Shown here one piece after another: positions 10,950 to 40,346 of a stretch of DNA of 55,304 nucleotides (its first letter is position 1; every line of letters starts with the position of its first letter). Under the pieces are notes generated by a model. That model was not told where the DNA came from. It did no database searches and saw only the letters and a list, made by a program, of their open reading frames with translations. The translations under genes and the position numbers were made by a program. The DNA is from Balneolaceae bacterium (GTDB lineage: Bacteria; Bacteroidota; Rhodothermia; Balneolales; Balneolaceae), in NCBI GenBank assembly GCA_016937115.1, contig JAFGWN010000186.1:1-55304 (forward strand). Reading direction: 5' to 3'.

Positions 10950-10950
10950 T

Positions 10951-11382: not shown

Positions 11383-11424
11383 TTCACCAAACGGTAAAAT
11401 TAATTTAAAACGAACATTTTTTTG

Positions 11425-15210: not shown

Positions 15211-15291
15211 CTTAACAGACTTGCGGAGGCCCTTGAATAGTTACATTTGTCAATTGTAAGTGTATTTCAATTTATTGTCATTAAACCATTT

Positions 15292-19676: not shown

Positions 19677-20096
19677 AATTACATCGCCATTGATTAGGGT
19701 TTTGCCTGATATACAAGACCATAACAATTTTTGCTGTTATAGATTCCAACAGTTTTAAAAATGATCACGATCAGCGCAAAATTGAGGGCGGGTACCTAAT
19801 ACTCCTGAACGCTTAAAATCACGTGCCTTCGTCGCAGTTATGAATTTAAAGAGAGTTTGTTAGAAAAAAATAATAAAGAATCTTTTATAAAGTGATCTGC
19901 GTACTGGGTATCAAGTGAACAAAAAAAGCCTTTTAAAATAACTGGGTGCATTTTTTGAAATATAGATTAAAAAATCCTAATCGCCGTATCTGTATGTGTG
20001 TTAAAGGCTTCTAATGGTACAAATAAAAGTATTCACCTATTTTATTAGTAGAAAAAACATTGCAGATACCTATCTGAAAATCACATTTAAATAGCT

Positions 20097-23435: not shown

Positions 23436-23463
23436 ATAAAAAATAATCATCCGGCTTTTTTTG

Positions 23464-26400
23464 ATGCGTAACCTGTTTTCACATATCTTATTTGTTGCAC
23501 TTGTACTGATTGCCTTGCCGGCTGTTGGTCAACAAGTGCCGCGGGCAGGTACGTCTATTGATAACCAGGCCAGTGGGTATCATTTTTTCCCTTCCTATTC
23601 CGATACCGTCTTTAAAAACTCCAATACCGTAAGTCTCATCGTACAGGAGGCAGAAAACATTAACCTTGTTCCCAATCACCGTGAGAAAATACGTATTGGG
23701 CAGGTAACAAGGTTTACCCATACGCTTTCAAATACCGGCAATGTACCGACAACCGTTACCATTACGGCCGAAAATATAATGGGTGATGATTTTGATTTGG
23801 ATAACATAATTTTATCTACGGTTGAAGAGGCATCAAAAATGGTATCCAATATCGGAATGGCTGGAGCATCGCAGGCTGCTTCTAAAGAAATAACGGTAGA
23901 ACTGGAACCCGGAGAGGTATTTGATTTCACTATTTCCCTGGTTGTGCCCAATGAGGCAAAGGCCCGTGATTTGGGTAAGGTTAAAATAGAAGCAAAGACC
24001 AGCAGCGGGAAACTTATTCTCAGTAATACGGATATTCTGGAAGTGCTTGAAGGACCCCGGGTAGAAGTGGTAAAGAAAGCAGCAGAAAGTACCGGAAAGC
24101 AGGGAGGAGAAATTACCTATCTTATTACCGGCAGTAACGAAGGGGATCAAACAGCCCGAACCTTTAATATCCAGGTTAATAATGTTCCCTTGCAAAAGGT
24201 AATTTTACGTGATCCGATTCCAGCTAATACGAGTTTTTTGCGGACATTAAGCACCGAAGGCGGGATGACGCTGTATCATACAATAGATGATCCTGAATTC
24301 ACCTATTCGACTACACTGCCGGATGATTTATCCCGGGTTGACGAATTTGCCGTAGCATACGATTCCATCGCACCGGGCCAGAAATTTGAGGCGCAGTTTG
24401 TGGTGGCCATTAATGAAAATGCTGCCGGACTTATTAAGAATATTGCCCAGGTTGACTATCGCGACCCTATTGATGACGAGCAGCAAAGTACAACGGCAGA
24501 AACAAACCTCGTGGAAGAGGTTTTACCTGAATATGAAGCAGAACTCGATTATTATACCGATGGTAACTACAAGACCGTTAGCCGCGCTGCCCGAATTTCT
24601 GGCCCGTTATTTTTACAAGCCAATGCTGCTGCCTGCAATGCGAGTAGTGCCGTCAAAGATACCACCGTTATCACTTTCAAATCGCGGGATACGGGAGACA
24701 TAGAAGAACTAACCGGGATAGAGACAGGGCATAATACGGGCTACTTTCGGGTTATGCCCAATGCACCACTGCGCGATGCGGCAAAGTTTACGGTACGCAA
24801 AAGAAATAACATTATAGAAACCGTAGGCGATGATGTTATCACAGCTACATTGCCGGCCTGCAGTGAAAACCAGGAGGCGGTAACGACACAGATTCACATT
24901 TCTCCATACGGCGTTATTTTTAACAGCGAAGATGGCGAGCCCGTTGCAAATACATCTATTACTCTTATTGATGTTACCGGAGAAGGTAACGGCGGTAATC
25001 CAGGGGCCCCGGCTACTGTATATAATGAGCAGGGCACCGAAAAGATTGAAAATACCCAGGAGACGGGAGAAGACGGAGAGTTTGAGTTTCCTTATGTGCA
25101 GCCCAGCACCTATCGTATTGAGGTAGAGCCTCCAACCGGTTGGCGTTTTGCTTCCATTGTTGAACCGCAGGATCTGCCCGGTAACCGGAAAGTTGACGAG
25201 TGGGCTTCGTACGGAAGGGAATTCGGGGTTACTGAACCCGGGCCGGTTGGAGTTGACGTACCGGTAGATCCCGCAACGGATGGCATTCTATTCATCGAAA
25301 AAACGGTATCAACTTCCGGGGCAGAAGTCGGTGATTTCGTCACCTATCAAATTACAGTGGCAAACAACGCATCTACGGTTGTTTCTGATGTTCGTGTTGA
25401 GGATACCTTGCCGTTTGGCTTCCGTTACGAAAAAGGAACCGCACGGCGGGATGAAAAACCCATTGCGGATCCCGATGGAGGGAAGGGACCATCACTCAGT
25501 TTTATGCTGGGCGATATTCAGGGCAATAGCTCGGTTACGCTTACCTACCGTGTACTGCTTGGCACCGGCGCGTTAAACGGCGATGGTACGAACCGCGCTG
25601 TAGCCGTAAGTAATGAAGGACTACAAATCACAAGTAACGAAGCCCAGAGTAAAGTTGAGGTACGCGGTGGCGTATTCACCGATAAAGGGTACATAATCGG
25701 TAAAGTATTTGCCGATGTAAACGAAAATGATGTGCAGGATCCCGGAGAGCCCGGCGTTCCCGGCGTTCGTCTTTATCTCGAAAATGGTTCATTCGTTATT
25801 ACCGATAGTGAAGGTAAATATACGTTTTATGGCATCAATCCCAATAAACACACGATAAAAGTTGACAACTATTCGTTGCCACAGGGCAGCCGGCTTGGTG
25901 TGCTCGATAACCGGCATGCCGGAGACCCTTCCACCCGGTTTGTCGATTTGAAAAATGGGGAACTGCACCGTGCCGATTTTGCTATTTGTGACCTCACGGA
26001 AGCGGCAAAACGTGAAATAGAAGACCGCCGCAAACAATTTAATATGGTAGTCAGCGACGAAGTGGGAACAACGCTTGAGCGAAATTTTTCGACCGATGCT
26101 CAAGACCCAACACGTGCTGTTCGCCGGGCGCAGGCAAGCGGCGTGGTTGACGGCGTCAAGCTCCCGGGTTTTCGTAAGCAAAAAAATGGTAGCTCCGCAT
26201 TGGCCCAATCTTCATCTGCTATCCTCAATGATACGGCAGCAGTTGAGCAGATAACACTTGAGGATGCTATGCTGGGTGAAAAGGCAGAAATTGGGTTTAT
26301 CGGTCTGCAGGATAACGATACCCTGCAAGCTGCACAGACAAGAATTTGGATAAAGGGCCGAAGCAGTACAGCACTTTCTCTTAGCGTTAATGGGGAGAAA

Positions 26401-29400
26401 ATTGGAGAAGATCGCATTAGTAAACGAAGCAAGCTCACGACACAAAAACTCCAGGCGCAAGAATATATCGGTGTTAATCTTACACCCGGTAAAAATACAC
26501 TTACCCTTACGGCAATCGATCCGTTTGGTAACGAGCGGGGACGGAAGCAGATAATGGTTTTTGCTCCCGGCCATATCCACAAAATAAAGCTCACAACGCC
26601 TGTTAATGACGTGCCGGCCGATGGTATTTCAACAGCCGTCGTAAAAGTTTGGTTGCAAGATAAAGAAGGCGTTGCCGTCAATGCAAAAACACCGGTTACC
26701 CTTGATGTCTCAATCGGTGAATGGTTGGTGAAAGATCTGGATTCGTCAACACCCGGTACCCAAACCTATGTTACCGGTGGGGAAGCAGAATTTGAGCTGC
26801 AATCGACTATCGAACCACAGGATGCTGATGTTCGCGTGTCAATCGGGGTGATGGAAGCAGAAACCGTGGTAAGTTTCTTGCCCGATCTTCGTCCCCTTAT
26901 TGCCGCAGGTATCATAGAAGGGACAATTCGATTAAACGAAGGTGCCAGTATTGTTCCGGCCCGCAGCGCCGACGGTTTTGAGCGGGAGCTAAAGTCGCTT
27001 TCATACAGCACCGATGATTATACGGCTGATGCCCGTGCGGCCTTTTTCCTGAAAGGGAAGATTAAAGGAAATATGCTGTTGACGGCGGGTTTTGATTCTG
27101 AAAAAGATGATGACCGCCTGTTTCGTGATATTCAGCCCGATGAGTTTTACCCTGTCTATGGTGAATCATCGGTAAAGGGATACGATGCACAGTCAACCGG
27201 ACGGCTGTACGTGCGGGTTGATCACAAGAAGACCTATGCTCTTTATGGCGATTTTGTAACGCAGGAGCGGCATCTGGCCAAAAGCCTTGGTGAATACAAC
27301 CGTACCCAGACAGGGATTAAACTGCATTACGAAAAAGACTGGGCACGTATCAATGTGTTTGGCAGCCAGGCGACTTCGTTACAGCGCATCGATGAGTTTC
27401 GGGGGCAGGGTATTTCGGGACCGTACGAACTGCAATTCGATAATATTTTGATTAACAGCGAACAGGTTGAGATCATAACGCGCGATCGCAATCAGCCATC
27501 TATTATTCTCGAACGGGAAAAACTGGTGCGTTTCCGCGATTATGTAATAGAACCGTTTACGGGCAATATTCTCTTTAAAACAGCTGTGCCGAGTGTTGAT
27601 CCAAAGCTGAATCCTGTTTTTATCCGGGTGACCTACGAAGTGGAAAGCGGGGCGGAAGATTACTTGATCGGCGGAGCTGATGGACAGATCAAGATTACGG
27701 ATTTCTTTGAAGTGGGCGGCTCATTTGTAGAAGATCGCAATCCAGAAGACAACTACCGTCTTAAAAGTATCAACTCCACATTACGACTTGGTGAAAATAC
27801 GGTATTGATTGGGGAAGCAGCCGAAAGCACGACCGAGCTTGAAGGTACTGGCCGGGGCGGACGCATTGAATTGCAGCATCGTGGCCAAATCGTCGATGGC
27901 CGTTTGTATGCCGGCCAAACCGACGAAGATTTTGTCAACCGCGCGTCTCAGCTTGGTCAGGGGCGGACCGAAGCCGGCGCACTCGGATCCATTAAACTGA
28001 CGAACTCAACTAATTTAAAAGGAGAGTTTCTATACAGCAGCAACGACACGCTGGGTACCAATACCACCGGCGGTTTGCTTAACATTCAGCAGCGTATTAC
28101 GAACGATATCCGTGCTGAAGTAGGGGTTCGTTACTCTAAGCAAAACAGATCGCAGTCGGGGATATCGGGTGATGAAGATATCACCAATAAAAATATTCGC
28201 GGTAAATTAACGGTGGGTGTTCCCAAGGTAAAAGGAGCAACTATTTATGGAGAGTACGAGCAGGATATTAATGAAAGCGACCGGAAGCTTATTGCTGTTG
28301 GCGGCGATTACCAGCTTAAAAATCGAGGTAGAATCTATGCGCGTCACGAGTTTATATCCAGTGCGCTCGGCCAGTATACGTTGAACAGTTCCACAGAACG
28401 CCAAAATACGGTTGTTGGTATTGATGCCAATTATATGCAAAACGGCCAGGTGTACAGCGAGTATCGTATGGATGATGCGTTTGACGGCCGCAATGCACAA
28501 GCGGCGATCGGGCTGCGCAATCGTTTTGAAATTCGTGAAGGGTTCGGCATCAATGCCGGGTTGGAGCGTATCTTTAGTTTAACGGGTGATCCACTGAATG
28601 AAGGGACAGCTATATCAGCCGGTGTTGACTATACTGCAAATCCGCTTTGGAAAGGCACCGCCCGGGCCGAAGCTCGTTTCAGCAATAATGGCGCCAGTTA
28701 TTTGAGCACGCTGGGCTACGGTCGAAAAATAGATCCCAACTGGACGTTTTTAGGTAAGAATATATTCAGCCTGCAAGCATCGTCAAATCCCGGAACCGCG
28801 GATCGTATCCAGCAGCGTCTGCGGTTTGGTTTTGCGTATCGTGAAACAGCTCAAAACCGCTGGGACGGGCTGGGCCGCTACGAATTAAAGTACGAAAAGA
28901 ATGGACAGTTTGGCGGGGACTATAGTCGGTTGGTTCATATTTTCTCGACTAATGTGAACTATCATCCAAGTGCCGACTGGACACACACTGGTCGTTTTGC
29001 AGCAAAAAAAGTAGCAGAATCATCAGCCGAGTTCGATTCAAAAAGTTTGACGATGCTTTTGAGTGCCCGCAGCATTCACGACATCACCCGAAAGTTAGAC
29101 GGCGGTATTAATGCAAGTATGATGACAGATGCCGGTTTTAGCAGCCAAAATTATGGCGTAGGGGTTGAGCTGGGATACATTGTACACCGTAACCTGCGTC
29201 TGGCTATCGGATTTAATGTATTTGGATTTGAAGATCGTGACCTGGCTGCATCCAGCTTTACCCGAAAAGGCGTATATCTTGGATTCAGTTACAAGTTTGA
29301 TGAGCGTCTGTTCCGCGGTCTTATGCCTGATGAAGACAAGAATGATTACCTGTATGCCACTTGCGATGAGTGTGCTGAACCGTCGACAAAGGCTGAAGCA

Positions 29401-30345
29401 CTGCCGTTACCAGACCCCGAGTTAGATTTTAAAGGATTGCAGCCGGTGATTATAGAAACGCCCGATTTTAAGGTAGCAACCCGTAAACCACTTGTCACTC
29501 TTCCAAAAGATATTCACTTTGGCTTTGATAAGAATGAGATTAGTGAAGCTTCTAAACGAATGCTCAATCTCGTGGCTCAGTTCCTGAAAGACCAGGATGC
29601 GTTTAAACTGGAAGTTACCGGCCATACCGATAGTCAGGCTTCGTACCAATATAATTTAAATTTATCCAAGCGGCGCGCAGTGTCAGTTCGTGAATACCTC
29701 GTTAGTCAAGGCGTTGATGCGAGCAAGGTAACGTTCAAGGGATGGAGTTTTGACGATTCAAAAACAGACCGGGAAGAGGATGCCATCGACCGATCCATAA
29801 ACCGCCGGGTTCAACTTAATATGGATATCCCAAACGTAAATGTTCGGTTCATCCCACAAATCAATGATCTGCAGATTGAAAAGCAGCGACTTGATGGGAT
29901 GCAGAATACGGTGTATGTATTGGATACCCGCATTGACGCCGTGCCGGATCGTATTCATTTAAACGGAACTGATTTACGTGTATCTACAAAATATATGTTG
30001 AATCGAATTGCGATGGCGCTGAAATATCATCCTGAGGAGAAAGCGACATTTAGTTTTGCAGAATCACAAGTGGAACAGCAGCAAATAGTTGCAGATTTTC
30101 TGCAACAGGCCGGCACTGATATGAATCGCATCATTATGCAGGCAGTACCGGCTTCAACAAACGAAGATACACGAGCGAAAGCAGTAGCTATCGATTACGG
30201 TGAGCATTCACAATTGATATCTGTGAAACAAACCGATGATTTAAGGTTGACCGATAACGCAAAAATTGAAATGATTTTGGATAAAATGATCGAACTGCTG
30301 AAGCTGCGCGAAGATCACTTATTGATTACTAAAAACCGTAAATGA
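23464..30345 (+). CDS. Giant outer-membrane protein: DUF11 repeats + Cna-B/SdrD-B-like + Big_1 + large beta-barrel + OmpA-like C-terminus (candidate anchor)
   Basis: ATG at 23464 (the track uses TTG at 23461), with signal peptide ...ALPAVGQ. Domain evidence is listed in the sub-features below. Confidence 0.85.
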   Translation: MRNLFSHILFVALVLIALPAVGQQVPRAGTSIDNQASGYHFFPSYSDTVFKNSNTVSLIVQEAENINLVPNHREKIRIGQVTRFTHTLSNTGNVPTTVTITAENIMGDDFDLDNIILSTVEEASKMVSNIGMAGASQAASKEITVELEPGEVFDFTISLVVPNEAKARDLGKVKIEAKTSSGKLILSNTDILEVLEGPRVEVVKKAAESTGKQGGEITYLITGSNEGDQTARTFNIQVNNVPLQKVILRDPIPANTSFLRTLSTEGGMTLYHTIDDPEFTYSTTLPDDLSRVDEFAVAYDSIAPGQKFEAQFVVAINENAAGLIKNIAQVDYRDPIDDEQQSTTAETNLVEEVLPEYEAELDYYTDGNYKTVSRAARISGPLFLQANAAACNASSAVKDTTVITFKSRDTGDIEELTGIETGHNTGYFRVMPNAPLRDAAKFTVRKRNNIIETVGDDVITATLPACSENQEAVTTQIHISPYGVIFNSEDGEPVANTSITLIDVTGEGNGGNPGAPATVYNEQGTEKIENTQETGEDGEFEFPYVQPSTYRIEVEPPTGWRFASIVEPQDLPGNRKVDEWASYGREFGVTEPGPVGVDVPVDPATDGILFIEKTVSTSGAEVGDFVTYQITVANNASTVVSDVRVEDTLPFGFRYEKGTARRDEKPIADPDGGKGPSLSFMLGDIQGNSSVTLTYRVLLGTGALNGDGTNRAVAVSNEGLQITSNEAQSKVEVRGGVFTDKGYIIGKVFADVNENDVQDPGEPGVPGVRLYLENGSFVITDSEGKYTFYGINPNKHTIKVDNYSLPQGSRLGVLDNRHAGDPSTRFVDLKNGELHRADFAICDLTEAAKREIEDRRKQFNMVVSDEVGTTLERNFSTDAQDPTRAVRRAQASGVVDGVKLPGFRKQKNGSSALAQSSSAILNDTAAVEQITLEDAMLGEKAEIGFIGLQDNDTLQAAQTRIWIKGRSSTALSLSVNGEKIGEDRISKRSKLTTQKLQAQEYIGVNLTPGKNTLTLTAIDPFGNERGRKQIMVFAPGHIHKIKLTTPVNDVPADGISTAVVKVWLQDKEGVAVNAKTPVTLDVSIGEWLVKDLDSSTPGTQTYVTGGEAEFELQSTIEPQDADVRVSIGVMEAETVVSFLPDLRPLIAAGIIEGTIRLNEGASIVPARSADGFERELKSLSYSTDDYTADARAAFFLKGKIKGNMLLTAGFDSEKDDDRLFRDIQPDEFYPVYGESSVKGYDAQSTGRLYVRVDHKKTYALYGDFVTQERHLAKSLGEYNRTQTGIKLHYEKDWARINVFGSQATSLQRIDEFRGQGISGPYELQFDNILINSEQVEIITRDRNQPSIILEREKLVRFRDYVIEPFTGNILFKTAVPSVDPKLNPVFIRVTYEVESGAEDYLIGGADGQIKITDFFEVGGSFVEDRNPEDNYRLKSINSTLRLGENTVLIGEAAESTTELEGTGRGGRIELQHRGQIVDGRLYAGQTDEDFVNRASQLGQGRTEAGALGSIKLTNSTNLKGEFLYSSNDTLGTNTTGGLLNIQQRITNDIRAEVGVRYSKQNRSQSGISGDEDITNKNIRGKLTVGVPKVKGATIYGEYEQDINESDRKLIAVGGDYQLKNRGRIYARHEFISSALGQYTLNSSTERQNTVVGIDANYMQNGQVYSEYRMDDAFDGRNAQAAIGLRNRFEIREGFGINAGLERIFSLTGDPLNEGTAISAGVDYTANPLWKGTARAEARFSNNGASYLSTLGYGRKIDPNWTFLGKNIFSLQASSNPGTADRIQQRLRFGFAYRETAQNRWDGLGRYELKYEKNGQFGGDYSRLVHIFSTNVNYHPSADWTHTGRFAAKKVAESSAEFDSKSLTMLLSARSIHDITRKLDGGINASMMTDAGFSSQNYGVGVELGYIVHRNLRLAIGFNVFGFEDRDLAASSFTRKGVYLGFSYKFDERLFRGLMPDEDKNDYLYATCDECAEPSTKAEALPLPDPELDFKGLQPVIIETPDFKVATRKPLVTLPKDIHFGFDKNEISEASKRMLNLVAQFLKDQDAFKLEVTGHTDSQASYQYNLNLSKRRAVSVREYLVSQGVDASKVTFKGWSFDDSKTDREEDAIDRSINRRVQLNMDIPNVNVRFIPQINDLQIEKQRLDGMQNTVYVLDTRIDAVPDRIHLNGTDLRVSTKYMLNRIAMALKYHPEEKATFSFAESQVEQQQIVADFLQQAGTDMNRIIMQAVPASTNEDTRAKAVAIDYGEHSQLISVKQTDDLRLTDNAKIEMILDKMIELLKLREDHLLITKNRK
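25698..25866 (+). other. SdrD-B/Cna-B-like domain inside the 2294-aa protein
   Basis: GKVFADVNENDVQDPGEPGVPGVRLYLENGSFVITDSEGKYTFYGINPNKHTIKV matches the classic SdrD B-repeat pattern. Confidence 0.75.
26578..26880 (+). other. Big_1 (invasin/intimin-type bacterial Ig-like) domain
   Basis: KIKLTTPVNDVPADGISTAVVKVWLQDKEGVAVNAKTPVTLDVSIGEW...TYVTGGEAEFELQSTIEPQDADVRVSIGV matches the AdG-s-a-v-a-v-D-G-pv pattern of Big_1. Confidence 0.7.
26881..29310 (+). other. Predicted large (>20-strand) outer-membrane beta-barrel region with a soluble insert
   Basis: About 800 aa of short amphipathic strands ending in aromatics (IRAEVGVRYS, ATIYGEYEQ, LIAVGGDYQL, RIYARHEFI, QVYSEYRMD, AISAGVDYTA, QQRLRFGFAYRE, GLGRYELKYEK, GVGVELGYIV, LRLAIGFNVFGF), with a terminal GVYLGFSYKF. 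A non-amphipathic insert (GPYELQFDNILINSEQVEIITRD...NILFKTAVPS) follows the first few strands. Confidence 0.55.
29505..29825 (+). other. OmpA_C-like peptidoglycan-binding domain
   Basis: IHFGFDKNEISEASKRMLNLVAQFLKD...LEVTGHTDSQASYQYNLNLSKRRAVSVREYLVSQGV...INRRVQL shows the canonical OmpA/MotB C-terminal motifs (TD...N..LS..RA..V). A second, degenerate copy follows at about 29950-30160. Confidence 0.85.
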
Positions 30346-33300
30346 GATTAGAAAGCAAAACATATTGCCTGTTTTTAAGCTTCTTGCTGGGAATGATATT
30401 CCTGAATGTTGCCAGCATTATCGCCCAGCCAGCCGGGTACGATTATTACAAGCAGATTACCATCCAGGCTTCGCAGGTGCCTTCTACGCAAACCAATTTC
30501 CCGGTATTAATTAGTATTACAGATCCGGATCTGGCGGCTAATGTGCAGAATACCAATGGCTATGATATTATTTTTTCTTCGGATACTAACGGCAATAATA
30601 TACTGAATCACCAGATTGAGAGCTACAATGCAGCAACCGGAACGTTGGTGGCATGGGTAGGGGTACCGAGCCTGAGCGGAAGCAGCAATACATCGATCTA
30701 CATGTTTTATGGAAACTCAAGTGTCTCTGCCAATCCTTCAACAACGGCTACCTGGAGCAGCGAATATACCAGTGTGTACCATCTAAATAATTTTGCAGAT
30801 GGTACTGCCACCGGAAATAACGGTACGAATAATGGTTCCATCAATGCAGCAGGTAAAATTGGAAGTGCCCGGCAATTTGACGGTAGCAATGATTATATAC
30901 AATTAAGCCAGAATTTGGCGCAGGTGTTAGCCGGAAATGGTACGGTATCAGCATGGATAAAAACAAGTCAGGTTGGTAGCAATACTATTTGGGAGGCTCC
31001 GGGTTTAACAGGTATTGAAGAGAGCGGGGGCGGCAACGATATTTTCTATGGATTTATTGATGGTTCGGGTCGGGTAGGAGCAGCAGCCGGGAACGGGACT
31101 GCAGCTAAAAGCTCGAATGCGTTGAATAATAATCAGTGGCACCATGTGGTGTTTACCCGGAATGCGTCAAGTGGGCAGATACTCACATACGTTAATGGAA
31201 TAATTCGTGGAAATGTAACCTCAGAAACAGGGAATAAAACGAATGCCTTTAACAGTATTGGCCGAATTGAAGATACCGGAGGATCTCCTGAATATTACCA
31301 GGGAGTAATTGATGAGTTTCGGGTTTCTAATCAGATTTTCTCTCAAAATCGCATTCAAACAGAATACAATAACCAAAATAACCCCTCTTCCTTTTATTCA
31401 GTTGGCAGTCAGCAGTCTGTTGATGATGTGGCGCCCGCTGCCCCGCAAAATGTTACGGCAACAGCAGTGGCCGGCGGTGATATCGAAATTTCATTTGATG
31501 ATGTGGATGAGACCGGCAGCGGCGTTACTTCTTATTCTGTAAAACGCTCAACCTTGCAAGGCGGACCTTATAGTCAGGTTAGTACCGTTACCGATAATGA
31601 AAGTGCAACTTACAACTACAGCGACAATACTGCTTCCAACGGGACTACCTATTACTATGTGGTTACGGCGGTGGATGCAGCCGGCAATGAAAGTAATACT
31701 TCTGCTGAAGTTTCGGCCACGGCTGATGGTACCGCACCAACAGTCGAGACTGTCACAGTTAATGGCCAGAACTTGCAAATTGATTACAGCGAGATACTTA
31801 ATAATGGTTCCGTTCCAGCGCCAAGTGATTTTAATATACAGGTGAATGGCAGTTCCCGAACAGTAACCAATGTTGCTATAAACGGCGATAAGGTAGATCT
31901 CACACTCAGTCCGTCGGTTGTACAGGGAGATAATGTGTCCGGAAGCTACACGGCAGGAAGTAATCCTATTGAAGACCAGGCAGGAAATGATGCAGCCAAC
32001 TTAAGCGGTCCTGTAACCAATAATACAAGTGACAGTACACCCCCCAATGCTCCGCAAAATATGACGGCAACAGCCATCATGGGTGGTGATATAGCGATAT
32101 CCTTCGATGATGTGGACGAAGTTTCCGGTACGGGGGTAAATTCGTATTCAGTGAAGCGTTCTGCAAACCCGGGCGGCCCGTACAGTCAGGTTGGAACCGT
32201 CGCAGATGATGAGAGCACCAGTTACACGTATACCGACAATACCGTTTCGGATGGCACTACCTATTATTATGTGGTAACAGCCATTGATGCCGCCACGAAT
32301 GAAAGCAGTAATTCATCCGAAGTCTCGGCTACCGCCGATGGTACGGGCCCAACGTTAGAAACAGCCACAGTTAATAGCACCATCCTGCAGCTTGATTATG
32401 ACGAGCAATTAAACACCGGTTCTGTCCCCGTGGCAGGTGCCTACGCAGTACAGGTGAATAGCAGTTCCCAAAGCATTTCAAACGTTGGCATTAATGGTGA
32501 CAAGGTGAATATTACACTGGTTTCCGGGGTAAGTCCGGGAGACAACATCACGATAAGTTATACGGCCGGAGTAAATCCAGTTGAAGATATCGTTGGAAAT
32601 CCGGCGGCGAATTTCTCTAATCAAACCGTAATAAATAATTCCGATAATACCCCCCCAATACTTAACAGTATTACTGTTAACAGCAGTAGTTTAAAGTTGG
32701 ATTATAACGAAACCTTAGATTTAGGTTCGGTACCGGCTGTCGGTGATTATACAGTTTGGGTGAATGGCAATCCGCGGACAATTACAAATGTACAGCTCAA
32801 TAATATCCGGGTAAATCTGACGCTCAGCCCGGCCGTAGTGAGCGGTGATAATGTTCAGGTCGATTACACGGCGGGTGCCAATCCGGTACAGGATGCGGCC
32901 GGAAATAACGTGGCGAATTTTACCAATCAAACCGCTGCCAATAATACCTTCAGCAATTCCGGCTTTGGTCCGGATCCCTGCCCGATCGTCAATGGCCAGG
33001 ATGCTGCATGGGCATGTTTTGATGGCATCAACGGGGGGACCACCATGTCGGCTTTGGTAGGTAACCTTGAGATTGCCACGGTTGATGCCGTTGGACAGAC
33101 AACTTTTGCGCCCAATGCGTTGCAGCAGTGGGCCAGCGGTGTCTTCTCGGGTGATCAGTACAATGGCCCGCAGGCCAATCCCATCGGTGCCAGTGGCAAC
33201 GCTTCCTCATTTGATATTACCATCCCATCGGGTGTACCATCGGATGCCATCATCTTTGCGCTGAACCGGCTGCGGCCTTCGTCCGGGAATACGAGCTACA

Positions 33301-36300
33301 CGCTTGAGGCTTTCAATTCAGCCGGAAGTAAAATTACTGTTAATGACTGGGTGACCGGCCAGGGTACCGACGGCGGTGTTTGTACGAACAGTGTAAACCT
33401 TGTTTATACTAACGGGAATACGACGATTGAATTCCGTCCGACCGTTTCCGGAGATCCATCGTGTTCATCATCTTCAACCCCCGTATGGTTCCGCATTACC
33501 GATGATAATGTCGCTCGCATCGAAATTCGAAAGGTTGCCGCCGAGCCCGATAATATTCATCTTGGTATGGCTGTCGCAGCCGATTTCGGCGATGCCCCCA
33601 ATGTATATAACACGCGCTATAACTCACGTGCCAATCCACCGGCATTTCACCTGCTTAATAACGACGCACCGAACACCGTCTACTTTGGCTCTGGTGTGGA
33701 CGGCGACGGTAACGGCCGCCCGAACACCAATGCTACGGGTGATGATAATGATTCCGGTCTCGACAGCGGCGATGATGAAGACGGCATTGCCTCATTGCCA
33801 ACACTGACGGCCGCTGATACGCAATACAGTATTACACTTTCCTGTACGGATGGCGGCGCAGCAGGCGGCTGGATTGATTTTGATCAGTCTGATTCATTTG
33901 ACTTCAATGAGTACGCTTCCGGTACCTGCTCGTCGGGCAGTGTAACCTTAACATGGACCGGCCTGTCCGGGTTGAATACGGGGCAAACATACGCTCGCTT
34001 CCGGATTGCTTCCAGCAGTGCGGAGATCGCCGAACCGGCAGGATATGCAACCGACGGCGAAGTGGAAGATTATACGTTGACTATCAGCCCGGCTGCGCAA
34101 ACCGATCTGGAAATTGTAAAAGCAGTGGATAATTCCACACCGATTGAAGGTGATCATATCAGCTTTACGGTTAAAGTTGTGAATAACGGATCTGATAACG
34201 CTACGGATGTTGAAGTTACCGATCAATTACCGGCCGGATTGACCTACGTTTCATCAACCCCGCAGCAGGGTACCTACAACAACAGTACCGGAATTTGGAA
34301 CGTGGGCAATATTAGTGCCAACGATTCCACATCACTGGTTCTCACTGCTTCAGTCAATAGCGCAACCTCTGGACAAACGATTACCAACACTGCTTCGGTA
34401 ACAGCGGTTAATGAAAGTGACCCCGTACCTTCCAATAATTCGGCATCATCGGGTATCACCGTTGTGCAGCCGGCGACGGACATCTCCATTGTTAAAATTG
34501 TTGACAATGCGGTACCTATCGAGGGAGAAACGGTAACGTACACCGTATCGGTAACTAATGAGGGGCCCCGCAATGCCACCAACCTTTCTGTAATCGATCA
34601 GTTACCTACAGGCATTACGTATCAATCATCTACTGCAAGCAAGGGATCGTATAATCAATCTACCGGTATTTGGAGTATAGGAACATTAAATAATGGGGAA
34701 TCTGCTTCTTTGACCATTCAGGTCAGCATTGATGATGAGACTGTAGGCAGTGATATTGCAAATACGGCGGCGCTCAACAGCCTGGATCAAACCGATCCTA
34801 ATGACAGTAATAACAGTTCTACAGCAACGATCGATATTGTTCCGCCGAATGAACCCACCACCTGTAACGACCGCCCAACCCTTTCGTTCGAAAGCCCAAC
34901 GCTGATAAGCGGATCGGCCGGACAGGTAGGCGCTGTCTACCGCTTTAATGATGTTTATCCGGCGTCGGCTAATGAGGTTTATGCCCGGGTAGAAATTTTG
35001 ACACTAAACAATATAATTTTACATGATATTGATAATGCACCGTCATATACAGGCATTGATGATGAGCTTTCACCCTTCATTGAAAATAATAGTGAAAGTG
35101 ACGGTTATATCGATTTTAGAATATCTTTCTTTGATGCCAGTACGGATCAGCCCAAATATATGTCCTTTGCTGCAACTACCGCCGATATTGACGGTACCAG
35201 CAGTGGCGGAGGGGACCTGAAGGATTTTGTGGGATATGAGAGTCTGACCTCATTTACGTGGGAACAAAATACGCAGCTTATACAGGGTGCCAGCGGCAGT
35301 TTTTTAACATTTGAATCAGCCAACTTCCAGGATACACAGCCGACCTATAGTAATTATACAGATTATATGGTCTATGCGACCTATACCAACGAGCCGACAT
35401 TCAGGTTGCGTACCGGCATTAAAGCCAACGGAATGACGGATGACCGAACCATATCCGTGAGTTTTAACCCATGCAAAATTAATGAATTCAACAACCCCGT
35501 TTCCGAAAATATTACCGATGTCGGCATCACAAAAACAGTGGACGATGTGACTCCGCAGACAGGAGAAACGATAACATATACGATTAATGCCGAAAACACC
35601 CGGGCCAATGCCGTAGGTGGTGTGGAAATAACTGATCAACTGCCTAACGACCTAACCTTTGTTTCTGCAACTCCAAGCAAGGGAACCTATAATAGTACTT
35701 CCGGGATTTGGGATATTGGTAATTTCTCGGGATTGGAATCAGCAAATTTGATTATCAAGGCTACGGTAAATTCCGGAACAGAGGGCGAAACAATAAGCAA
35801 CACTGCCACTTTGACTAACAGTTCCGGCACCGATCAAAATCAATCCAATAATTCCGCTTCTGCAGATATCCAGGTATTTGATCCGGGTTCGGGCATGCAA
35901 TGTACCGAGCCGCCCTATTTCTCATTTGCCAATCCCAACCTCGAAGCCGGTTCATCGGGACAGGTCGGCGCGGTATACCGGTTTAGCAATGTGCGGTCGG
36001 GCATCGATGCATTGGTAAAAATTACGGCCAGGAATAATGCCCAGCTTAACGAGATAGATTCAAACCAAGGGGTAAGCAATGCCAACTTCAGTCCGCTGTA
36101 TGCTCTGCAAAACGGCAACAATACCAGCGGATACATCGAATGGGAAATCAAGTTTGTACAATCCGGCACGTTTACTCCAATCAAGCAGACGTTTGCCATG
36201 ACGGCACTGGACGTTGACGGCTATGCAACAGGAGGTTCAAGCATCAGGGATTATCTTAGTTTTTCTCAGAATCAGTCGAATACAGTTGAAGCAAGCACAG

Positions 36301-39300
36301 AGCTTACCCTTTCTTCCCATCCGCCGTTTCAGCGATTTGCATCAACCAATACAAACGATTCTCCAACGGGTATCCTGGATACCGATTTCATGGTATATAT
36401 TGGCTACAATTATACCTCCGTGCTGAATATTCGTACCGGATCCATTGCTACCGGCGGCTACACAAGTCAGCGGCTGGTTGATATCGATTTTCGCCAGTGT
36501 CTGGACCAGGAATTCGATAATCCGGTGGTTACTATGCGTAATGCCGATATCGCGGTCAACAAAACTACCGACAATGCGAATCCGCTGGCGGGTGAAACCG
36601 TCAACTTTACGGTTTCTGTTACCAATAATGGTCCTGAAAATGCAACCGAGCTGGATATTAACGAGACGCTGCCAGCGGGCTTGTCACTTGTATCAGCAAA
36701 TCCCAGCCAGGGGACGTATAACCAGCTCACAAAAATATGGGCAGTTGGCACGTTGAACTCCGGCAATTCAGCTACGCTGGATCTGGAAACAACGGTAAAC
36801 CAGGGAGCCGATGAGGATATGATCAATAAAGCGTTTGTAAAAGGGCTAAACCAGGCTGATCCCGCCGTGGCTAATGATACTTCTGAAGTTGCTATTGCGG
36901 TTAGTGTACCTGTCGAAGGAATCGTATTTGAAGATAAAACCGGCAATGCTGTCGCCGACGGTGATACCAACTTTGGAGATGCTACCGGTGATCAACAGGC
37001 AAAAGCCAATGTTAAGATACACTTGTTTAAAGATGGGGGTGATGGCACTGCGAATGGTGCCGATGATACCTTTATACAGACTGTGCAAACCAACAGTATC
37101 GGGCAGTATAATTTCCAGGTTGGTGAAAATGGGGACTACTGGATAGCGGTTGACTCCCGAACCGGCGGGTTGTCCAACGGCACTACATGGGCCGAACAGA
37201 CCTATGCTCCTGCGGGCGGGCTTTGTACCGATGGAGCCGGTGTCACCACAACCCGATCAACCGCTGGTGCCTGTTTCGGCGGCCGCCGCGGGACGGCCTC
37301 TGACTTGATTTCCGCTACCCCGGCCGGCAGCGATCTTGCCAATGCCGAACATGTGGCTAAAGTAACGATGAGTGGTTCGGAGATTACAGGTATCAATTTT
37401 GGTTTCAGTTTCAACGTGGTTACCCATACGGGTGACGGTGATGACGACGCTACTGCAAGCCGGTCGACCCAGGGCTCGCTGCGGCAGTTCATTCAAAATG
37501 CCAATAACATTGCGGGTGCCAATGCCATGCGTTTTGTACCTGCGGTAGCTACAAATGCTTCGGGTGGCGGTGGTAACTGGTGGAGTATCACCATTGGTTC
37601 GGCACTGCCAGCGGTTACGGGACCGCTCACCACGATTGACGGTACGGCGTTTGATCTGAATAATCCGGCCAGCGAACTGAATACGAACACTGGAAGTACA
37701 GGTACTGGTGGTAATGTAGGAGTTGATCAGCTGCCGTTGAATACCTTTGAACTAAAGGAATTAGATATTAACCTGAATGATATCGGTAATAATGCCTTCC
37801 AAATTAATAGTACAGGGGTAGTCAATATCCGTGATTTAGCACTCTATAATAATACACAGTTATTGCAAGTGTCGCAGGTATCGAACGGCGTCGTTGAGCG
37901 CAACTTACTCGGCAATAATGCCGGCGGATCCCTTGGTAACCTTAATCTGATTAGTAACAGTAGCATTGTCTTTACCGGCAATGCTTCAACTTCCATTGAG
38001 ATTCGGAAAAATAATATCAGTCCCAACTGGATTGATGGCGTCAAATCAAATAATGCCAATGCCCTTATTGACCTGAACCAAAATGAAATTCATAGTATCG
38101 GCGGGCTTAGTTCTCAGGGCGATGGAGTAGCGGGTATTGGAACATGGACGATAGAGCAAAACCTGATTTATAATAACGGACAAGATAACAATCAATCCCA
38201 TAACGGCGGCAGTGGTATTGAGATTGGCGGCAGCAGCGGATCCTCCCAAAATAATGTGATTCGAAATAATACTATTCGAGACAACAAAATTGCCGGTATT
38301 ACAATTTTGAATAATGTATTAAGTACGACCATTCGGAAAAATATCATCAACAATAACGGAACCAACTATACATCGGGGCCTGCGCTGGGCGCCGGAGTGC
38401 GGCTGACGACACCGGCATCACAAACTCAGCAGGGCATCAACATCAGTCAGAACAGTTTCTATGGTAACTATGGGTTGGCGATCGATATTGTGAAAGATTA
38501 CAGCGGATCAGGCCAGGCCGACGGCGTGAATCCCAACGACGGTGCGTTGCAGGCGGCTTCATCGGTACCTAACCGCGGGCTCGACTACCCGGTATTTACG
38601 CTGACAACGCTGGAGGGTTCAACGCTGCATATCGAAGGGTATGTAGGTACGTTTAACAATCGTCTTGCCGGACCGTTTACGATCGAAATTTATAAAGCCG
38701 ATAATGATGGCAACAACGACGGGCTTATTGAGCAGGGCGGATCGCTGGTTCGTCCGCATGGGGAAGGCCGGACGCTTCTGAGTACTATTACCACCAATCC
38801 TGACGGTTCATTCAGTGAGGATATTACCGTTGGTGGGTCGATAAATGTGGTGATTAACGATCGGATTACGGCTCTTGCGTTCAGCGGGAGTGGCAATACA
38901 TCAGAATTCAGTTCCAATCAGCGTGTGGTACCAACGGGCGTTGCTGTGAGCGGATATGTATATCACGATACGAATCACAACGGAACCCGGAACAGCGGTG
39001 AATCCGGTCTCGAATCGGTAACGATGGTACTGTATAACCAGAACGAAAATAACTGTAAGAGCGTGCGGACGGATGCAAATGGTTTCTACGAGTTTACCAA
39101 TGTACTGAACGGAACTTACCAGCTGATTGAAGCCTTTGGTGAAAGTATTCCTACCCCGGATATTTGTACACCGGCAGCGGCCGATCCTGTGGGATTTATT
39201 TCCACAACCACCAACAGCCGGTCGGTAACGATCAACAACCTTCCGGAGAATCAGGATTTTGGTGATTTTGAAGGATCGAGTATCAAAGGAAATATATTTA

Positions 39301-40346
39301 ATGACAACGGAATCGGAACCGGCGGCACGGCTAATGATGTGGTTAAGAATGGCGGAGAGCCGGGCATCAATGCCACGGTGGTAAAAGCGTTGAGCGGCAG
39401 CGGAGCTCCCCTGGATCAGACGACGGCCTCGGCCGGTGGAAATTATACGTTATATGTAGCTAAATCTCAGGTTCCTTCCGGCGGAACGGTCATAATAAGG
39501 GAAACAAACAAAGCCAACTTTATAACCATAGGCGGAAGCGCGGGAACGACAGGGGGGACCTATAGTAAACCCAATGATGAAGTGAGTTTTACCAATACAG
39601 TAGGTGCCATTTATACCGGCGTCAACTTTGCAGATGTGGAACAAAGCCGCCTGCTGACTGATGGCGAACAGAATATTCAGCCGGGCGGAACAGCCACCTT
39701 CCAGCACCAGTTCCAGGCAAGAACGGCGGGAGCTGTCACCTTTACAACATCTACGGCAACCGATCCGGCCGGCAACACCATTCCGGTAATCTTATACCGG
39801 GATATAAACTGTAACGGAGCGGTCGATTCGGGTGAGCCGGTACTTGACGGCTCGGGGCCTGTGTCTGTTACTACGGACCAAACTGTGTGCCTGGTTCTAA
39901 AAGTGACCATCCCCCTGGGAACAAGTAATGGCGTTATAAGCACTACAACAGTAGCAGCGTCGATGGATTTTGCCAATACCAACCCGGTTATACAGCAATC
40001 GCTCTCCCGCACCGATGTGGTGAATGTTACCGAAACAAACGGTGGACTGTCACTCATCAAAGCCGTTGACAAAGCGACAGCAGAGCCTGGTGAAGTGCTG
40101 ACCTACACCATCACCTACGAAAACAACGGAAGTGATCCCATCAACACGCTTGAAATTGCAGACAACGTGCCAGCATTTACCACTTTTAGTTCAGCCAGCT
40201 GCGGTGTGCTGCCCAACAACCTTACCAACTGTACGATTAATGCGCCGGCGGCCGGGCAAACAGGAGCCATAACGTGGACGTTTACAGGCACGATGGCTCC
40301 GGGAACCTCCGGCGCGGTTACCTATCAAGTAACGATCCAGGATTAA
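30342..40346 (+). CDS. Giant 3334-aa secreted multidomain surface protein (candidate adhesive tip)
   Basis: The ATG overlaps the upstream TGA (ATGA at 30342-30345). It has signal peptide ...NVASIIAQ. Domain evidence is listed in the sub-features below. The C-terminus ends in a DUF11-type domain, and I recognise no T9SS, LPXTG, PEP-CTERM or RTX-type signal. Confidence 0.85.
   Translation: [3334 protein letters not shown]
30444..31400 (+). other. DUF2341 + LamG/concanavalin-like (Laminin_G_3) module
   Basis: [24 protein letters not shown]...GYDIIFSSD...[24 protein letters not shown]...SIYMFYGN fits DUF2341. YHLNN...[29 protein letters not shown]...GTVSAWIKT...WHHVVFTR...LTYVNG...[13 protein letters not shown] fits the LamG_3 pattern. 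Confidence 0.75.
31422..32950 (+). repeat. Tandem coding repeat: (FN3 + SwmB-type repeat) x2 plus one extra SwmB-type repeat
   Basis: The unit is about 610 nt. [26 protein letters not shown]...[31 protein letters not shown] + [27 protein letters not shown]...[25 protein letters not shown] is repeated as [26 protein letters not shown]...[31 protein letters not shown] + ...[22 protein letters not shown]. A third SwmB-type unit then ends ...[22 protein letters not shown]. Confidence 0.8.
33575..34090 (+). other. GEVED-type domain
   Basis: It begins [11 protein letters not shown]..., contains acidic DGDGNG / [15 protein letters not shown] stretches and ends [14 protein letters not shown], the eponymous GEVED motif. 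Confidence 0.65.
34090..34850 (+). other. Two complete DUF11 domains
   Basis: [51 protein letters not shown]...[31 protein letters not shown], followed by [51 protein letters not shown]...[28 protein letters not shown]. Confidence 0.85.
34843..35520 (+). other. Uncharacterised ~225-aa domain, copy 1 ([13 protein letters not shown] motif)
   Basis: [32 protein letters not shown]...[14 protein letters not shown]...[10 protein letters not shown]...[17 protein letters not shown]...SVSFNPC. It is paralogous to 35881-36545. Confidence 0.6.
35881..36545 (+). other. Uncharacterised ~225-aa domain, copy 2 ([13 protein letters not shown] motif)
   Basis: [32 protein letters not shown]...[14 protein letters not shown]...[10 protein letters not shown]...[17 protein letters not shown]...DIDFRQC. 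It is collinear with copy 1. Confidence 0.6.
37780..38500 (+). other. Right-handed parallel beta-helix repeats (NosD/pectate-lyase-like)
   Basis: There are repeated ~22-aa turns: [54 protein letters not shown] and [10 protein letters not shown]. Confidence 0.7.

What the first reader, a model, noticed from the sequence alone, without database searches (positions are those of the whole stretch)
40040..40343. Giant protein ends in a strand-deficient DUF11 domain and has no N-terminal hairpin: acceptor-only, as expected for a fibre tip
The last domain of the 3334-aa protein runs LSLIKAVD (A), [12 protein letters not shown] (B), [10 protein letters not shown] (C), ...GAITWTFTG (D), [11 protein letters not shown] (E) and then stops. 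The preceding domain continues with F ([13 protein letters not shown]) and G ([13 protein letters not shown]). The N-terminus starts directly with DUF2341 and has no orphan F-G unit. In the complementation model this protein can only accept a hairpin, from the 880-aa or 2294-aa protein. That would place its lectin-like and beta-helix modules at the distal end. Across the four proteins the pattern is internally consistent: acceptor-only for the 166-aa and 3334-aa proteins, donor plus acceptor for the 880-aa protein, donor-only for the 2294-aa protein.
Basis: inference. Interest (0 to 1): 0.7.

Follow-up and report, generated by a model that had tools for sequence, protein, structure and literature searches.

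The report
Split isopeptide domain joins fibre proteins
The giant surface protein ends in an unfinished "catcher" domain whose missing two strands, including the residue needed for a self-forming covalent bond, sit at the start of neighbouring proteins. This points to an undescribed way for Gram-negative bacteria to build covalently linked surface fibres without a sortase.

Summary
The 3334-aa protein stops right after strand 7 of a nine-strand DUF11 (now CLIPPER) domain and has no N-terminal hairpin. The 880-aa and 2294-aa proteins begin, straight after their signal peptides, with an orphan two-strand hairpin.

CLIPPER domains carry an autocatalytic Lys-Asn isopeptide bond catalysed by an Asp (crystal 9IFR). 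The truncated domains keep the Lys and the Asp: 28/28 tip proteins and 82/82 major subunits. The hairpins carry the Asn: 81/81 major subunits and 72/75 anchors. So complementation should be locked covalently, like a natural SpyTag/SpyCatcher.

The order small–major–anchor–tip held in all 26 related loci that contained all four genes, drawn from at least six phyla. A fused tip domain plus 880-aa hairpin models as a complete CLIPPER fold (pLDDT 89.8; TM 0.79 to 9IFR).

The most likely chain is giant tip ← (880-aa)n ← 2294-aa outer-membrane/OmpA anchor. The 166-aa protein lacks the catalytic Asp and probably binds hairpins non-covalently.

Nothing here is experimentally tested. I found no paper describing this system. 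The nearest precedents are archaeal threads and Clostridium BsaA.

The parts
40038..40343 (+). Truncated CLIPPER/DUF11 'acceptor' (catcher) domain, giant residues 3233-3334. It has strands 1-7 of 9. The stop codon is at 40344-40346.
   Evidence: (Pfam DUF11 46.6 bits, profile 2-96/114).
40059..40061 (+). Codon of Lys3240 ('LSLIK'), equivalent to the isopeptide Lys715 of crystal 9IFR.
   Evidence: Profile alignment to 9IFR. Lys is present in 28/28 tip orthologues and in all nine fragments aligned (P0124 was left out).
40161..40163 (+). Codon of Asp3274 ('EIADNVP'), equivalent to the catalytic Asp of 9IFR.
   Evidence: Asp is present in 28/28 tip orthologues, with Glu in one metagenomic fragment.
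39648..40037 (+). Complete Ig-like domain (residues 3103-3232) preceding the acceptor. Together the two form a conserved C-terminal module, paralogous to the last two domains of the 880-aa protein.
   Evidence: BLASTP E=3e-15 against 880-aa residues 631-880. The full-module profile always lies at the protein C-terminus.
30342..40346 (+). Giant 3334-aa predicted tip protein.
20857..20991 (+). Donor hairpin (strands 8-9 equivalent) at the mature N-terminus of the 880-aa protein, residues 40-84. Asn51 is at 20890-20892.
   Evidence: I49, N51, A53 invariant; Asn 81/81; most conserved 40-aa window of the family.
23032..23382 (+). Truncated CLIPPER acceptor at the C-terminus of the 880-aa protein, residues 765-880. 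Lys773 is at 23056-23058 and Asp822 at 23203-23205.
   Evidence: Lys 82/82, Asp 82/82.
23530..23646 (+). Donor hairpin at the mature N-terminus of the 2294-aa anchor, residues 24-62. Asn35 is at 23563-23565.
   Evidence: Asn 72/75.
23461..30345 (+). 2294-aa donor-only anchor. It has the hairpin, Ig-like/CLIPPER/SdrD_B/Big_1 domains, a long beta-rich (putative barrel) region and an OmpA peptidoglycan-binding domain (residues 2020-2108, nt 29518-29784). It has no C-terminal acceptor.
   Evidence: 0 of 68 complete anchors end in an acceptor.
20097..20597 (+). 166-aa secreted CLIPPER-like acceptor-only protein. It has Arg in place of the isopeptide Lys, and the catalytic Asp is absent.
   Evidence: TIGR01451 E=7e-4; Asp-equivalent is hydrophobic in 74/74; Lys-equivalent is variable.

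Best explanation
The giant's last domain is half of a naturally split CLIPPER (DUF11, CnaA-like) domain. It supplies strands 1-7, including the isopeptide Lys3240 and the catalytic Asp3274. It cannot fold completely or cross-link itself, because strands 8-9 and the partner Asn are missing.

Those strands are supplied in trans by the N-terminal beta-hairpin of another locus product, most likely the 880-aa protein (Asn51). After the hairpin inserts, the Lys-Asn isopeptide forms autocatalytically and joins the two polypeptides covalently.

The 880-aa protein has both a hairpin and an equivalent acceptor (Lys773/Asp822), so it can add head-to-tail. The 2294-aa protein has only a hairpin (Asn35), followed by a predicted outer-membrane barrel and a peptidoglycan-binding OmpA domain, so it closes the chain at the cell surface.

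The result is a polar, sortase-independent, covalently stitched fibre: giant (distal adhesive tip) <- (880-aa)n <- 2294-aa anchor.

The 166-aa protein is an acceptor-like domain without the catalytic acid. It probably binds hairpins reversibly, as a chaperone or cap.

Shown: the truncation, the orphan hairpins, the split and conserved triad, the synteny, and the compatibility of the parts with a full CLIPPER fold. Inferred: trans insertion, bond formation, which hairpin the giant takes, polymer length, position on the cell, and the export route.
For: 1. Truncation. The Pfam match stops at profile position 96/114 in the giant and at 83-96/114 in six of eight other tip proteins scanned (two gave no DUF11 match); complete copies reach 112-114.

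2. Hairpins. These follow directly after the signal peptides and align with strands 8-9 of complete copies.

3. Triad mapping. DUF11/CLIPPER carries a Lys(b1)-Asn(b8) isopeptide catalysed by Asp, shown by crystal 9IFR (PMC12617251). A profile of the window's domains aligns its Lys, Asp and Asn columns to K715, the LTLND Asp and N806 of 9IFR at E=6e-8.

4. Triad conservation, split across proteins:
- Tip: Lys 28/28, Asp 28/28.
- Major subunit: Lys 82/82, Asp 82/82, hairpin Asn 81/81.
- Anchor: hairpin Asn 72/75.
- The hairpin is the most conserved 40-residue window of the major-subunit family.

5. Bookkeeping. 0/28 tips have a hairpin. 0/68 complete anchors end in an acceptor. Gene order is small-major-anchor-tip in 26/26 loci that have all four genes. 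There are 474 relatives among species-representative genomes. The 80 loci examined span Balneolaceae, Beta- and Gammaproteobacteria, Acidobacteriota, Verrucomicrobiota, Eisenbacteria, Armatimonadota and others.

6. Module position. The full C-terminal module lies at the extreme C-terminus in 26/26 diverse representatives of 527-3950 aa.

7. Structure. An AF2 model of giant 3229-3334 fused to 880-aa residues 39-84 gave mean pLDDT 89.8 and pTM 0.85. It has nine strands, and the hairpin blocks score pLDDT 85-95. The best PDB match is 9IFR, with TM 0.79 and rmsd 3.1 A.

8. Partner choice. Loci whose anchors have lost the Asn (L040, L071, L084), or that have no adjacent anchor (L001-L003), still keep the tip Lys/Asp wherever a complete tip was available (L071, L084, L001-L003; L040's tip runs off the fetched region). 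This points to the major subunit's hairpin as the tip's partner.
Against: - No experiment exists on any member.
- The AF2 model is a single-chain fusion, not a complex. Its alignment contained complete CLIPPER domains, which steer it toward the full fold.
- The truncated domain alone could not be modelled, so its instability is inferred.
- Appending the hairpin raised the scores of related Pfam models only modestly. DUF7619 rose 8.3 bits and DUF7507 rose 7.6 bits, but DUF11 itself rose 0 bits for the giant.
- Three anchors lack the Asn, so covalent locking is not universal at every junction.
- No export route for the tip and major subunits across the outer membrane is evident. The anchor's 'barrel' has only a weak sub-threshold OMP_b-brl match.
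- The 880-aa hairpin could in principle close onto its own C-terminal domain.
Confidence: 0.7

Rival explanations
1. Same hairpin complementation, but non-covalent. The Lys and Asp are conserved for structural reasons, and no intermolecular isopeptide forms.
For: Three anchors lack the hairpin Asn yet keep the hairpin. The 166-aa protein is an acceptor without catalytic residues, so non-covalent hairpin binding seems viable in this system. Some CLIPPER domains naturally lack isopeptide bonds (PMC12617251). BsaA oligomers stay SDS-stable without their bond.
Against: Lys and Asp were present in every tip and major-subunit acceptor examined, and Asn in every alignable major-subunit hairpin, across phyla whose acceptor domains share only about 40-55% identity with the window's. 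All three residues map exactly onto the crystallographic triad.
Confidence: 0.12
2. The giant's acceptor takes the hairpin of the 2294-aa anchor directly, giving a two-protein anchored adhesin. The 880-aa protein forms a separate structure or is an optional spacer.
For: Both hairpins align equally well with the missing strands. Pfam scores for the giant-plus-2294 chimera are similar to those for the giant-plus-880 chimera (DUF11 47.6 vs 45.8 bits). The anchor and tip genes overlap by 4 nt (23461-30345 and 30342-40346), which suggests coupled translation.
Against: Loci whose anchor lacks the Asn (L071, L084), or that have no adjacent anchor (L001-L003), retain the tip Lys/Asp and the major subunit's Asn. 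With direct tip-anchor pairing, the major subunit's acceptor and donor would have no terminating partners. The other related Pfam models slightly favour the 880 hairpin (DUF7619 29.6 vs 26.8; DUF7507 34.9 vs 30.1).
Confidence: 0.15
3. The terminal domain is a self-sufficient compact Ig-like domain, or chiefly a C-terminal export or sorting signal recognised by a translocon. It is not a complementation acceptor.
For: C-terminal beta-sandwich sorting domains exist in other systems (for example T9SS CTDs; general knowledge). The module is invariably at the extreme C-terminus. DUF7507/CLIPPER_2 domains are described as more compact, typically seven strands.
Against: There is no T9SS-type CTD or other sorting-domain hit in Pfam or NCBIfam. 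The family spans phyla that share no such secretion system. This reading does not explain orphan hairpins carrying the exact missing Asn, or a conserved Lys and Asp with no partner in cis. The 880-aa protein ends in the same kind of truncated domain and starts with the hairpin.
Confidence: 0.08
4. Complementation is intramolecular for the 880-aa protein, whose own hairpin closes onto its own C-terminal domain. No polymer forms, and the giant's acceptor stays empty or is filled only by the anchor.
For: The donor and acceptor are on one chain. No data on fibre length exist.
Against: About seven tandem Ig-like domains would have to loop back on themselves. The acceptor-only tip and donor-only anchor show that trans pairing must occur in the system.
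Confidence: 0.07

Closest known systems
CLIPPER (DUF11, PF01345) intramolecular isopeptide domain; crystal 9IFR from Acinetobacter silvestris adhesin B9T28_05395 (PMC12617251)
   Same: Same domain family by Pfam and by fold (TM 0.79 for the completed chimera). Same Lys/Asp/Asn triad positions. The host protein there is also an OmpA-anchored Gram-negative fibrillar adhesin.
   Different: There the domain is complete and the bond is intramolecular, within one polypeptide. Here the domain is split between two gene products after strand 7, so the same chemistry would join different proteins. That paper does not mention split, truncated or intermolecular CLIPPER domains.
Engineered Tag/Catcher pairs (isopeptag/pilin-C, SpyTag/SpyCatcher, SnoopTag/SnoopCatcher, DogTag/DogCatcher). 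Recalled from general knowledge; DogCatcher is PMC8878318, seen.
   Same: A Gram-positive adhesin isopeptide domain is split so that one fragment carries the Lys plus the catalytic acid and the other carries the Asn/Asp. Docking restores the fold and the bond forms spontaneously.
   Different: Those splits are man-made, from CnaB or RrgA-type domains, and use one-strand tags. This split is natural, in a CnaA-like CLIPPER domain. The donor is a two-strand hairpin of about 45 residues at a mature N-terminus, and it is used for fibre assembly.
Archaeal thread filament of Sulfolobus acidocaldarius (Saci_0406; PMC9715654) and Clostridium perfringens BsaA 'exchange and lock' fibres (bioRxiv 10.1101/2024.11.04.621531)
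   Same: Head-to-tail filaments in which an N-terminal donor segment completes the next subunit's beta-sandwich, and an intermolecular isopeptide then locks the joint.
   Different: - Unrelated folds and families (thread pilin; TasA-like).
- The donors are single strands.
- The thread bond joins the Asp24 alpha-amine to Asn57 between subunits n and n+2.
- They are found in archaea and monoderms, with no outer-membrane anchor and no dedicated tip or anchor subunits of this kind.
Chaperone-usher pili (type 1 / P pili)
   Same: [quoted passage not shown] There is an adhesive acceptor-only tip, and the base sits at an outer-membrane protein. This is established knowledge, summarised.
   Different: No PapD-like chaperone or usher domain is detected. 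The donor is a two-strand hairpin rather than one strand. A covalent lock is predicted. The candidate chaperone would offer an acceptor groove rather than a donor strand.
Sortase-assembled Gram-positive pili (SpaA, BcpA, RrgB)
   Same: Covalent tip-shaft-base pili built from CnaA/CnaB-type domains. These pilins are among the top structural matches (BcpA, SpaD, S. sanguinis PilA/B).
   Different: No LPXTG motif (the giant ends ...VTIQD). No sortase among the four locus genes. The hosts are diderms. The inter-subunit bond is predicted to be the domain's own autocatalytic Lys-Asn bond, not a sortase-made Thr-Lys bond.

Membership tests
CLIPPER / DUF11 (PF01345) | Sequence match to the Pfam model above the gathering score | tested here: met
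   Giant residues 3233-3334 score 46.6 bits against a cut-off of 24.6, but cover only profile positions 2-96 of 114.
CLIPPER / DUF11 (PF01345) | Complete nine-strand CnaA-like beta-sandwich within one polypeptide | tested here: not met
   The protein ends after strand 7. The fold is complete only when the 880-aa hairpin is appended (pLDDT 89.8; TM 0.79 to 9IFR).
CLIPPER / DUF11 (PF01345) | Lys-Asn isopeptide with catalytic Asp inside the domain | tested here: not met
   Lys3240 and Asp3274 are present, but the Asn-bearing strand is absent in cis. The Asn is supplied by the hairpins of other proteins. Bond formation itself cannot be tested with these tools.
Chaperone-usher pili | PapD-like periplasmic chaperone and usher pore encoded with the subunits | tested here: not met
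   No PapD, usher or fimbrial Pfam/NCBIfam hit in any of the four proteins.
Chaperone-usher pili | [quoted passage not shown] | tested here: inconclusive
   The logic is analogous, supported by sequence, conservation and a fusion model. No complex was modelled or observed, and the donor is a hairpin rather than a single strand.
Sortase-dependent pili | C-terminal LPXTG sorting signal and a pilin-specific sortase | tested here: not met
   The giant ends ...[11 protein letters not shown] and the 880-aa protein ends ...FAVEINSN*, with no LPXTG or hydrophobic tail. None of the four locus genes, nor the ten flanking ORFs scanned, is a sortase. The rest of the window was not scanned.
Donor-strand-exchange-and-lock filaments (archaeal thread; BsaA/TasA family) | Homology to Saci_0406 or to TasA/BsaA (peptidase M73-like) subunits | tested here: not met
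   No such Pfam hit; every domain detected is an Ig-like, adhesin-type or OmpA family. The resemblance is mechanistic only.
Type IX secretion substrates | C-terminal Por_Secre_tail (TIGR04183-type) sorting domain | tested here: not met
   NCBIfam and Pfam give only DUF11-type matches for the C-terminus. The family also occurs in Proteobacteria and Acidobacteriota.
Type V (FimA/Mfa1) pili of Bacteroidota | FimA/Mfa-type pilin domains | tested here: not met
   No FimA/Mfa Pfam hit in any of the four proteins. Lipoprotein-type processing and the C-terminal donor strands typical of that family were not examined.

The most novel reading that the evidence does not exclude
This locus represents a widespread, undescribed class of Gram-negative surface fibre. 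Separate gene products (a variable adhesive tip, a repeating shaft and an outer-membrane/peptidoglycan anchor) are ligated head-to-tail without any enzyme. The joints are naturally split CLIPPER domains: a two-strand N-terminal hairpin completes the neighbour's truncated domain, and the domain's own Lys-Asn isopeptide becomes an intermolecular weld. A catalytically dead acceptor paralogue serves as hairpin chaperone or cap. It would be nature's own SpyTag/SpyCatcher and a source of new orthogonal ligation pairs.
Probability: 0.55. Interest if true: 0.9.

Novelty: new variant of a known kind. Interest (0 to 1): 0.8.

Why it matters
Covalently polymerised pili are textbook Gram-positive biology and depend on sortases. 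Gram-negative pili are held together non-covalently. If this model is right, many diderm lineages build covalent, modular adhesive fibres by splitting a self-ligating domain between genes. The 80 related loci examined, out of 474 relatives detected, come from at least six phyla.

Three things would follow:
- It would explain how tip proteins ranging from a few hundred to 3334 aa here, carrying interchangeable adhesive passengers, can be mounted on a common stalk.
- It would give DUF11/CLIPPER truncations at protein termini a concrete meaning for genome annotation.
- It would provide natural hairpin/catcher pairs for protein engineering.

It also raises an open question. No known secretion machinery is encoded in the locus, so it is unclear how the tip and shaft cross the outer membrane.

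Tried and rejected
- A single-protein scan of genome contigs with the 880-aa protein found nothing. The profile scan worked.
- phmmer of the chimera against PDB sequences missed 9IFR. A profile was needed.
- The first AF2 run was a two-domain fusion without an alignment. It gave pLDDT 59, and its Foldseek hits were generic Ig tandems (integrins, arrestins), so it was not used.
The accepted alignment was window-only plus tip fragments.
- The anchor's beta-rich region has no significant Pfam or PDB sequence relative. OMP_b-brl scored E=0.96 and nothing usher-like appeared. Its role as a pore remains a guess.
- The representative search was dominated by giant multi-repeat DUF11 proteins. Only hits spanning the full module were informative.
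- I checked whether the CheY-like gene after the giant is a conserved partner. It is not found downstream of tips elsewhere.
- I considered and rejected a T9SS CTD, an LPXTG/sortase signal, a frameshifted or cryptic downstream hairpin, and chaperone-usher membership.
- Eight literature searches found no description of split CLIPPER domains or of this operon.

Full report
**The locus.** Four co-directional genes lie on the + strand between msrA (19113-19727, −) and a small CheY-like gene.
- 166 aa: 20097-20597.
- 880 aa: 20740-23382.
- 2294 aa: 23461-30345.
- 3334 aa: 30342-40346.

All four have signal peptides on direct reading. Pfam gives these domains:
- The giant has DUF2341, a LamG-like domain, SWM repeats, GEVED, five DUF11 matches and SdrD_B.
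- The 880-aa protein has Ig-like and DUF11 domains.
- The 2294-aa protein has DUF11, SdrD_B and CarboxypepD_reg domains, a long beta-rich stretch and an OmpA peptidoglycan-binding domain at residues 2020-2108.

The closest homologues of the 880-aa protein are from Balneolaceae (52% identity to Fodinibius salinus), so the window probably comes from that family.

**Checking the observation.**
- Pfam DUF11 matches them well (46.6 bits) but only over profile positions 2-96 of 114. Internal copies match 1-114.
- Aligned with the four complete internal copies, the protein stops right where the complete copies continue with 'xxGxxIxNxA ... (S/N)Nxxxxx(I/V)xV'.
- The mature N-terminus of the 880-aa protein is QTVPQAGEEIENQANATYTDNNGNPRTAQSNTVTTVVQQ. 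That of the 2294-aa protein is QQVPRAGTSIDNQASGYHFFPSYSDTVFKNSNTVSLIVQE. Both align with exactly that missing segment.
- The 880-aa protein also ends in a truncated copy, and so does the 166-aa protein.
- The giant has no hairpin. No hairpin is hidden after its stop codon, and the motif occurs only twice in the six-frame translation of the whole window.

**What the domain is.** Current Pfam names PF01345 'CLIPPER'. The source paper (PMC12617251) shows by crystallography (9IFR) that it is a nine-strand CnaA-like sandwich. It carries an autocatalytic intramolecular isopeptide between a Lys in strand 1 and an Asn in strand 8, catalysed by an Asp.

A profile of the window's domains finds 9IFR at E=6e-8. 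It aligns its 'L-x-I-x-K', 'x-x-D-x-L-P' and 'I-x-N-x-A' columns with K715, the LTLND Asp and N806. By my count along the aligned chain that Asp is residue 749, whereas the paper reports Asp748. I treat the two as the same residue.

The split therefore runs through the catalytic triad.
- The giant's terminal domain keeps Lys3240 and Asp3274.
- The 880-aa terminal domain keeps Lys773 and Asp822.
- The Asn is on the hairpins: Asn51 of the 880-aa protein and Asn35 of the 2294-aa protein.

This is the arrangement of an engineered Tag/Catcher pair, but encoded naturally.

**Comparative test.** A profile scan of one genome per species returned 474 relatives of the 880-aa protein. I fetched 80 loci. 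HMMs for the hairpin and for the two acceptor types were run over all + strand ORFs. The loci come from Balneolaceae, Beta- and Gammaproteobacteria, Acidobacteriota, Verrucomicrobiota, Eisenbacteria, Armatimonadota, Desulfuromonadales and Thermodesulfovibrionales.

- Gene order was small-major-anchor-tip in all 26 loci where all four genes were captured.
- Every major subunit has the hairpin after its signal peptide and the truncated domain at its extreme C-terminus.
- No tip has a hairpin (0/28).
- No complete anchor ends in an acceptor (0/68).
- All 28 non-identical tips, from 222 to 3334 aa, end 0-2 residues after the same strand.

Conservation of the triad residues:

| Protein | Residue | Count |
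|---|---|---|
| Tip | Lys | 28/28 |
| Tip | Asp | 28/28 |
| Major subunit | Lys | 82/82 |
| Major subunit | Asp | 82/82 |
| Major subunit hairpin | Asn | 81/81 |
| Anchor hairpin | Asn | 72/75 |

The three anchor exceptions have Ser, Ser and Ala.

The hairpin is the most conserved 40-residue window of the major-subunit family (0.74 against 0.58 for the middle of the protein). Nine of the ten metagenomic fragments homologous to the giant's last two domains stop at the same place and keep Lys plus Asp or Glu. The tenth, P0124, departs from the family consensus near its end and was left out.

An exhaustive profile search of 1.84 billion representative proteins gave 26 proteins matching the full two-domain module. 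In all 26 the module ends 0-2 residues from the C-terminus.

Tip proteins elsewhere have different N-terminal passengers, such as beta-helix, SpaA_4 or extra CLIPPER repeats. The eight tips scanned share an SdrD_B domain, and the acceptor HMM places the truncated CLIPPER at the C-terminus of all eight (Pfam DUF11 reaches threshold in six of them).

**Structure.** A fusion of giant 3229-3334 with 880-aa residues 39-84 was modelled with an alignment of window-derived domains plus tip fragments.
- Mean pLDDT was 89.8 and pTM 0.85.
- The model has nine strands. The hairpin forms strands 8 and 9 at pLDDT 85-95.
- Its best PDB match is the CLIPPER crystal 9IFR (TM 0.79 on the target, rmsd 3.1 Å). 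Gram-positive pilins also rank among the top hits.

Three caveats apply. This is a fusion rather than a complex. The alignment includes complete domains that guide the fold. I could not read coordinates to measure the Lys-Asn distance.

**Most likely mechanism.** The giant is the acceptor-only end of a polar chain. Its terminal half-domain is completed by the 880-aa hairpin and then welded by a Lys3240-Asn51 isopeptide. The 880-aa subunits can add to each other in the same way (Lys773/Asp822 with Asn51). The 2294-aa protein, which is donor-only and ends in a putative barrel plus OmpA domain, terminates the chain at the envelope. The whole assembly reads N-to-C from the distal tip to the cell, like one very long adhesin with nicks in the strand 7-8 loops of the junction domains.

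Several loci suggest the tip's partner is the major subunit's hairpin rather than the anchor's. L071 and L084 have anchors that lost the Asn, and L001-L003 have no adjacent anchor. All of them retain the tip Lys/Asp and the major subunit's Asn.

The 166-aa family always has a hydrophobic residue at the catalytic-Asp position (74/74) and a variable residue at the Lys position. It should therefore bind a hairpin without ligating it. A chaperone or cap role is my inference.

**What remains unknown.** Whether the bond forms, how long the shaft is, and where assembly happens are all open. So is how the tip and shaft cross the outer membrane. No secretion genes are conserved next to the operon. The anchor's beta-rich region has no recognisable relative.

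**Comparison with known systems.** By sequence and fold the domain is a CLIPPER domain, but it fails two defining features in cis: the complete fold and the internal triad. Both are met only in trans.
- The system works like chaperone-usher donor-strand complementation. It also works like the 'exchange and lock' filaments of Sulfolobus threads (PMC9715654) and C. perfringens BsaA. It shares no homology with any of these.
- It resembles sortase pili in architecture and fold but has no LPXTG motif and no sortase.
- Eight full-text searches found no description of split or intermolecular CLIPPER domains or of this operon. The CLIPPER survey itself does not mention them.

I rate it a new variant of a known kind: strand complementation plus an isopeptide lock, in a new fold, host type and architecture.

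**Verdict.** Confidence in the full model is about 0.7, all of it computational.

Noticed in passing
window 40352-40741 (+): A CheY-like receiver-domain ORF of 129 aa (MKKPEYSDEQMKSIFIVDD...DIDMPDINGF...) starts 5 nt after the giant's stop codon, so it is probably co-transcribed. The ORF listing shows it with an upstream GTG at 40274. It is not found downstream of tip genes in the other loci. A few loci have response regulators 1-4 kb upstream instead.
   Followed up: partly
window 11422-15210 and 15247-19065 (+): Two tandem paralogous proteins of ~1270 aa fuse an N-terminal calcineurin-like metallophosphoesterase to a C-terminal Omp85/BamA-type barrel. This is an unusual architecture, and it lies just upstream of the fibre operon.
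   Followed up: no
window 6630-11382 (+): A TLC-type ATP/ADP-transporter-like protein, a second TLC-like protein fused to HEAT repeats (917 aa), and a small cNMP-binding protein lie in a row.
   Followed up: no
L001-L003 (JGI metagenomes), e.g. L001 6466-10933: A three-gene variant: the small protein, the major subunit and a short tip (310-375 aa), with no anchor gene adjacent. A xanthine/uracil permease follows, and a prepilin-type N_methyl protein lies upstream on the other strand.
   Followed up: partly
L040, L071, L084 anchor N-termini: The anchor hairpin is present, but the isopeptide Asn is replaced by Ala (L040, GTMISASASATF) or Ser (L071 and L084, GTVIESRATL). The anchor junction may be non-covalent in these lineages.
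   Followed up: partly
L027 9917-12676: The major-subunit gene is split into two ORFs (448 aa with the hairpin, 443 aa with the acceptor) in one Balneola MAG. This could be a frameshift, a pseudogene or an assembly error.
   Followed up: no
window 40038-40343 and tip orthologues: Most tip acceptor domains carry a conserved Cys pair (SAxC...C, here C3292 and C3303) that the 880-type acceptors lack. It looks like a disulfide specific to the tip catcher.
   Followed up: no
window 30342-30345: The giant's ATG overlaps the anchor's stop codon by 4 nt (ATGA-type overlap at 30342-30345). The two genes abut or overlap, or lie only a few nucleotides apart, in many related loci, which suggests translational coupling of anchor and tip.
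   Followed up: no
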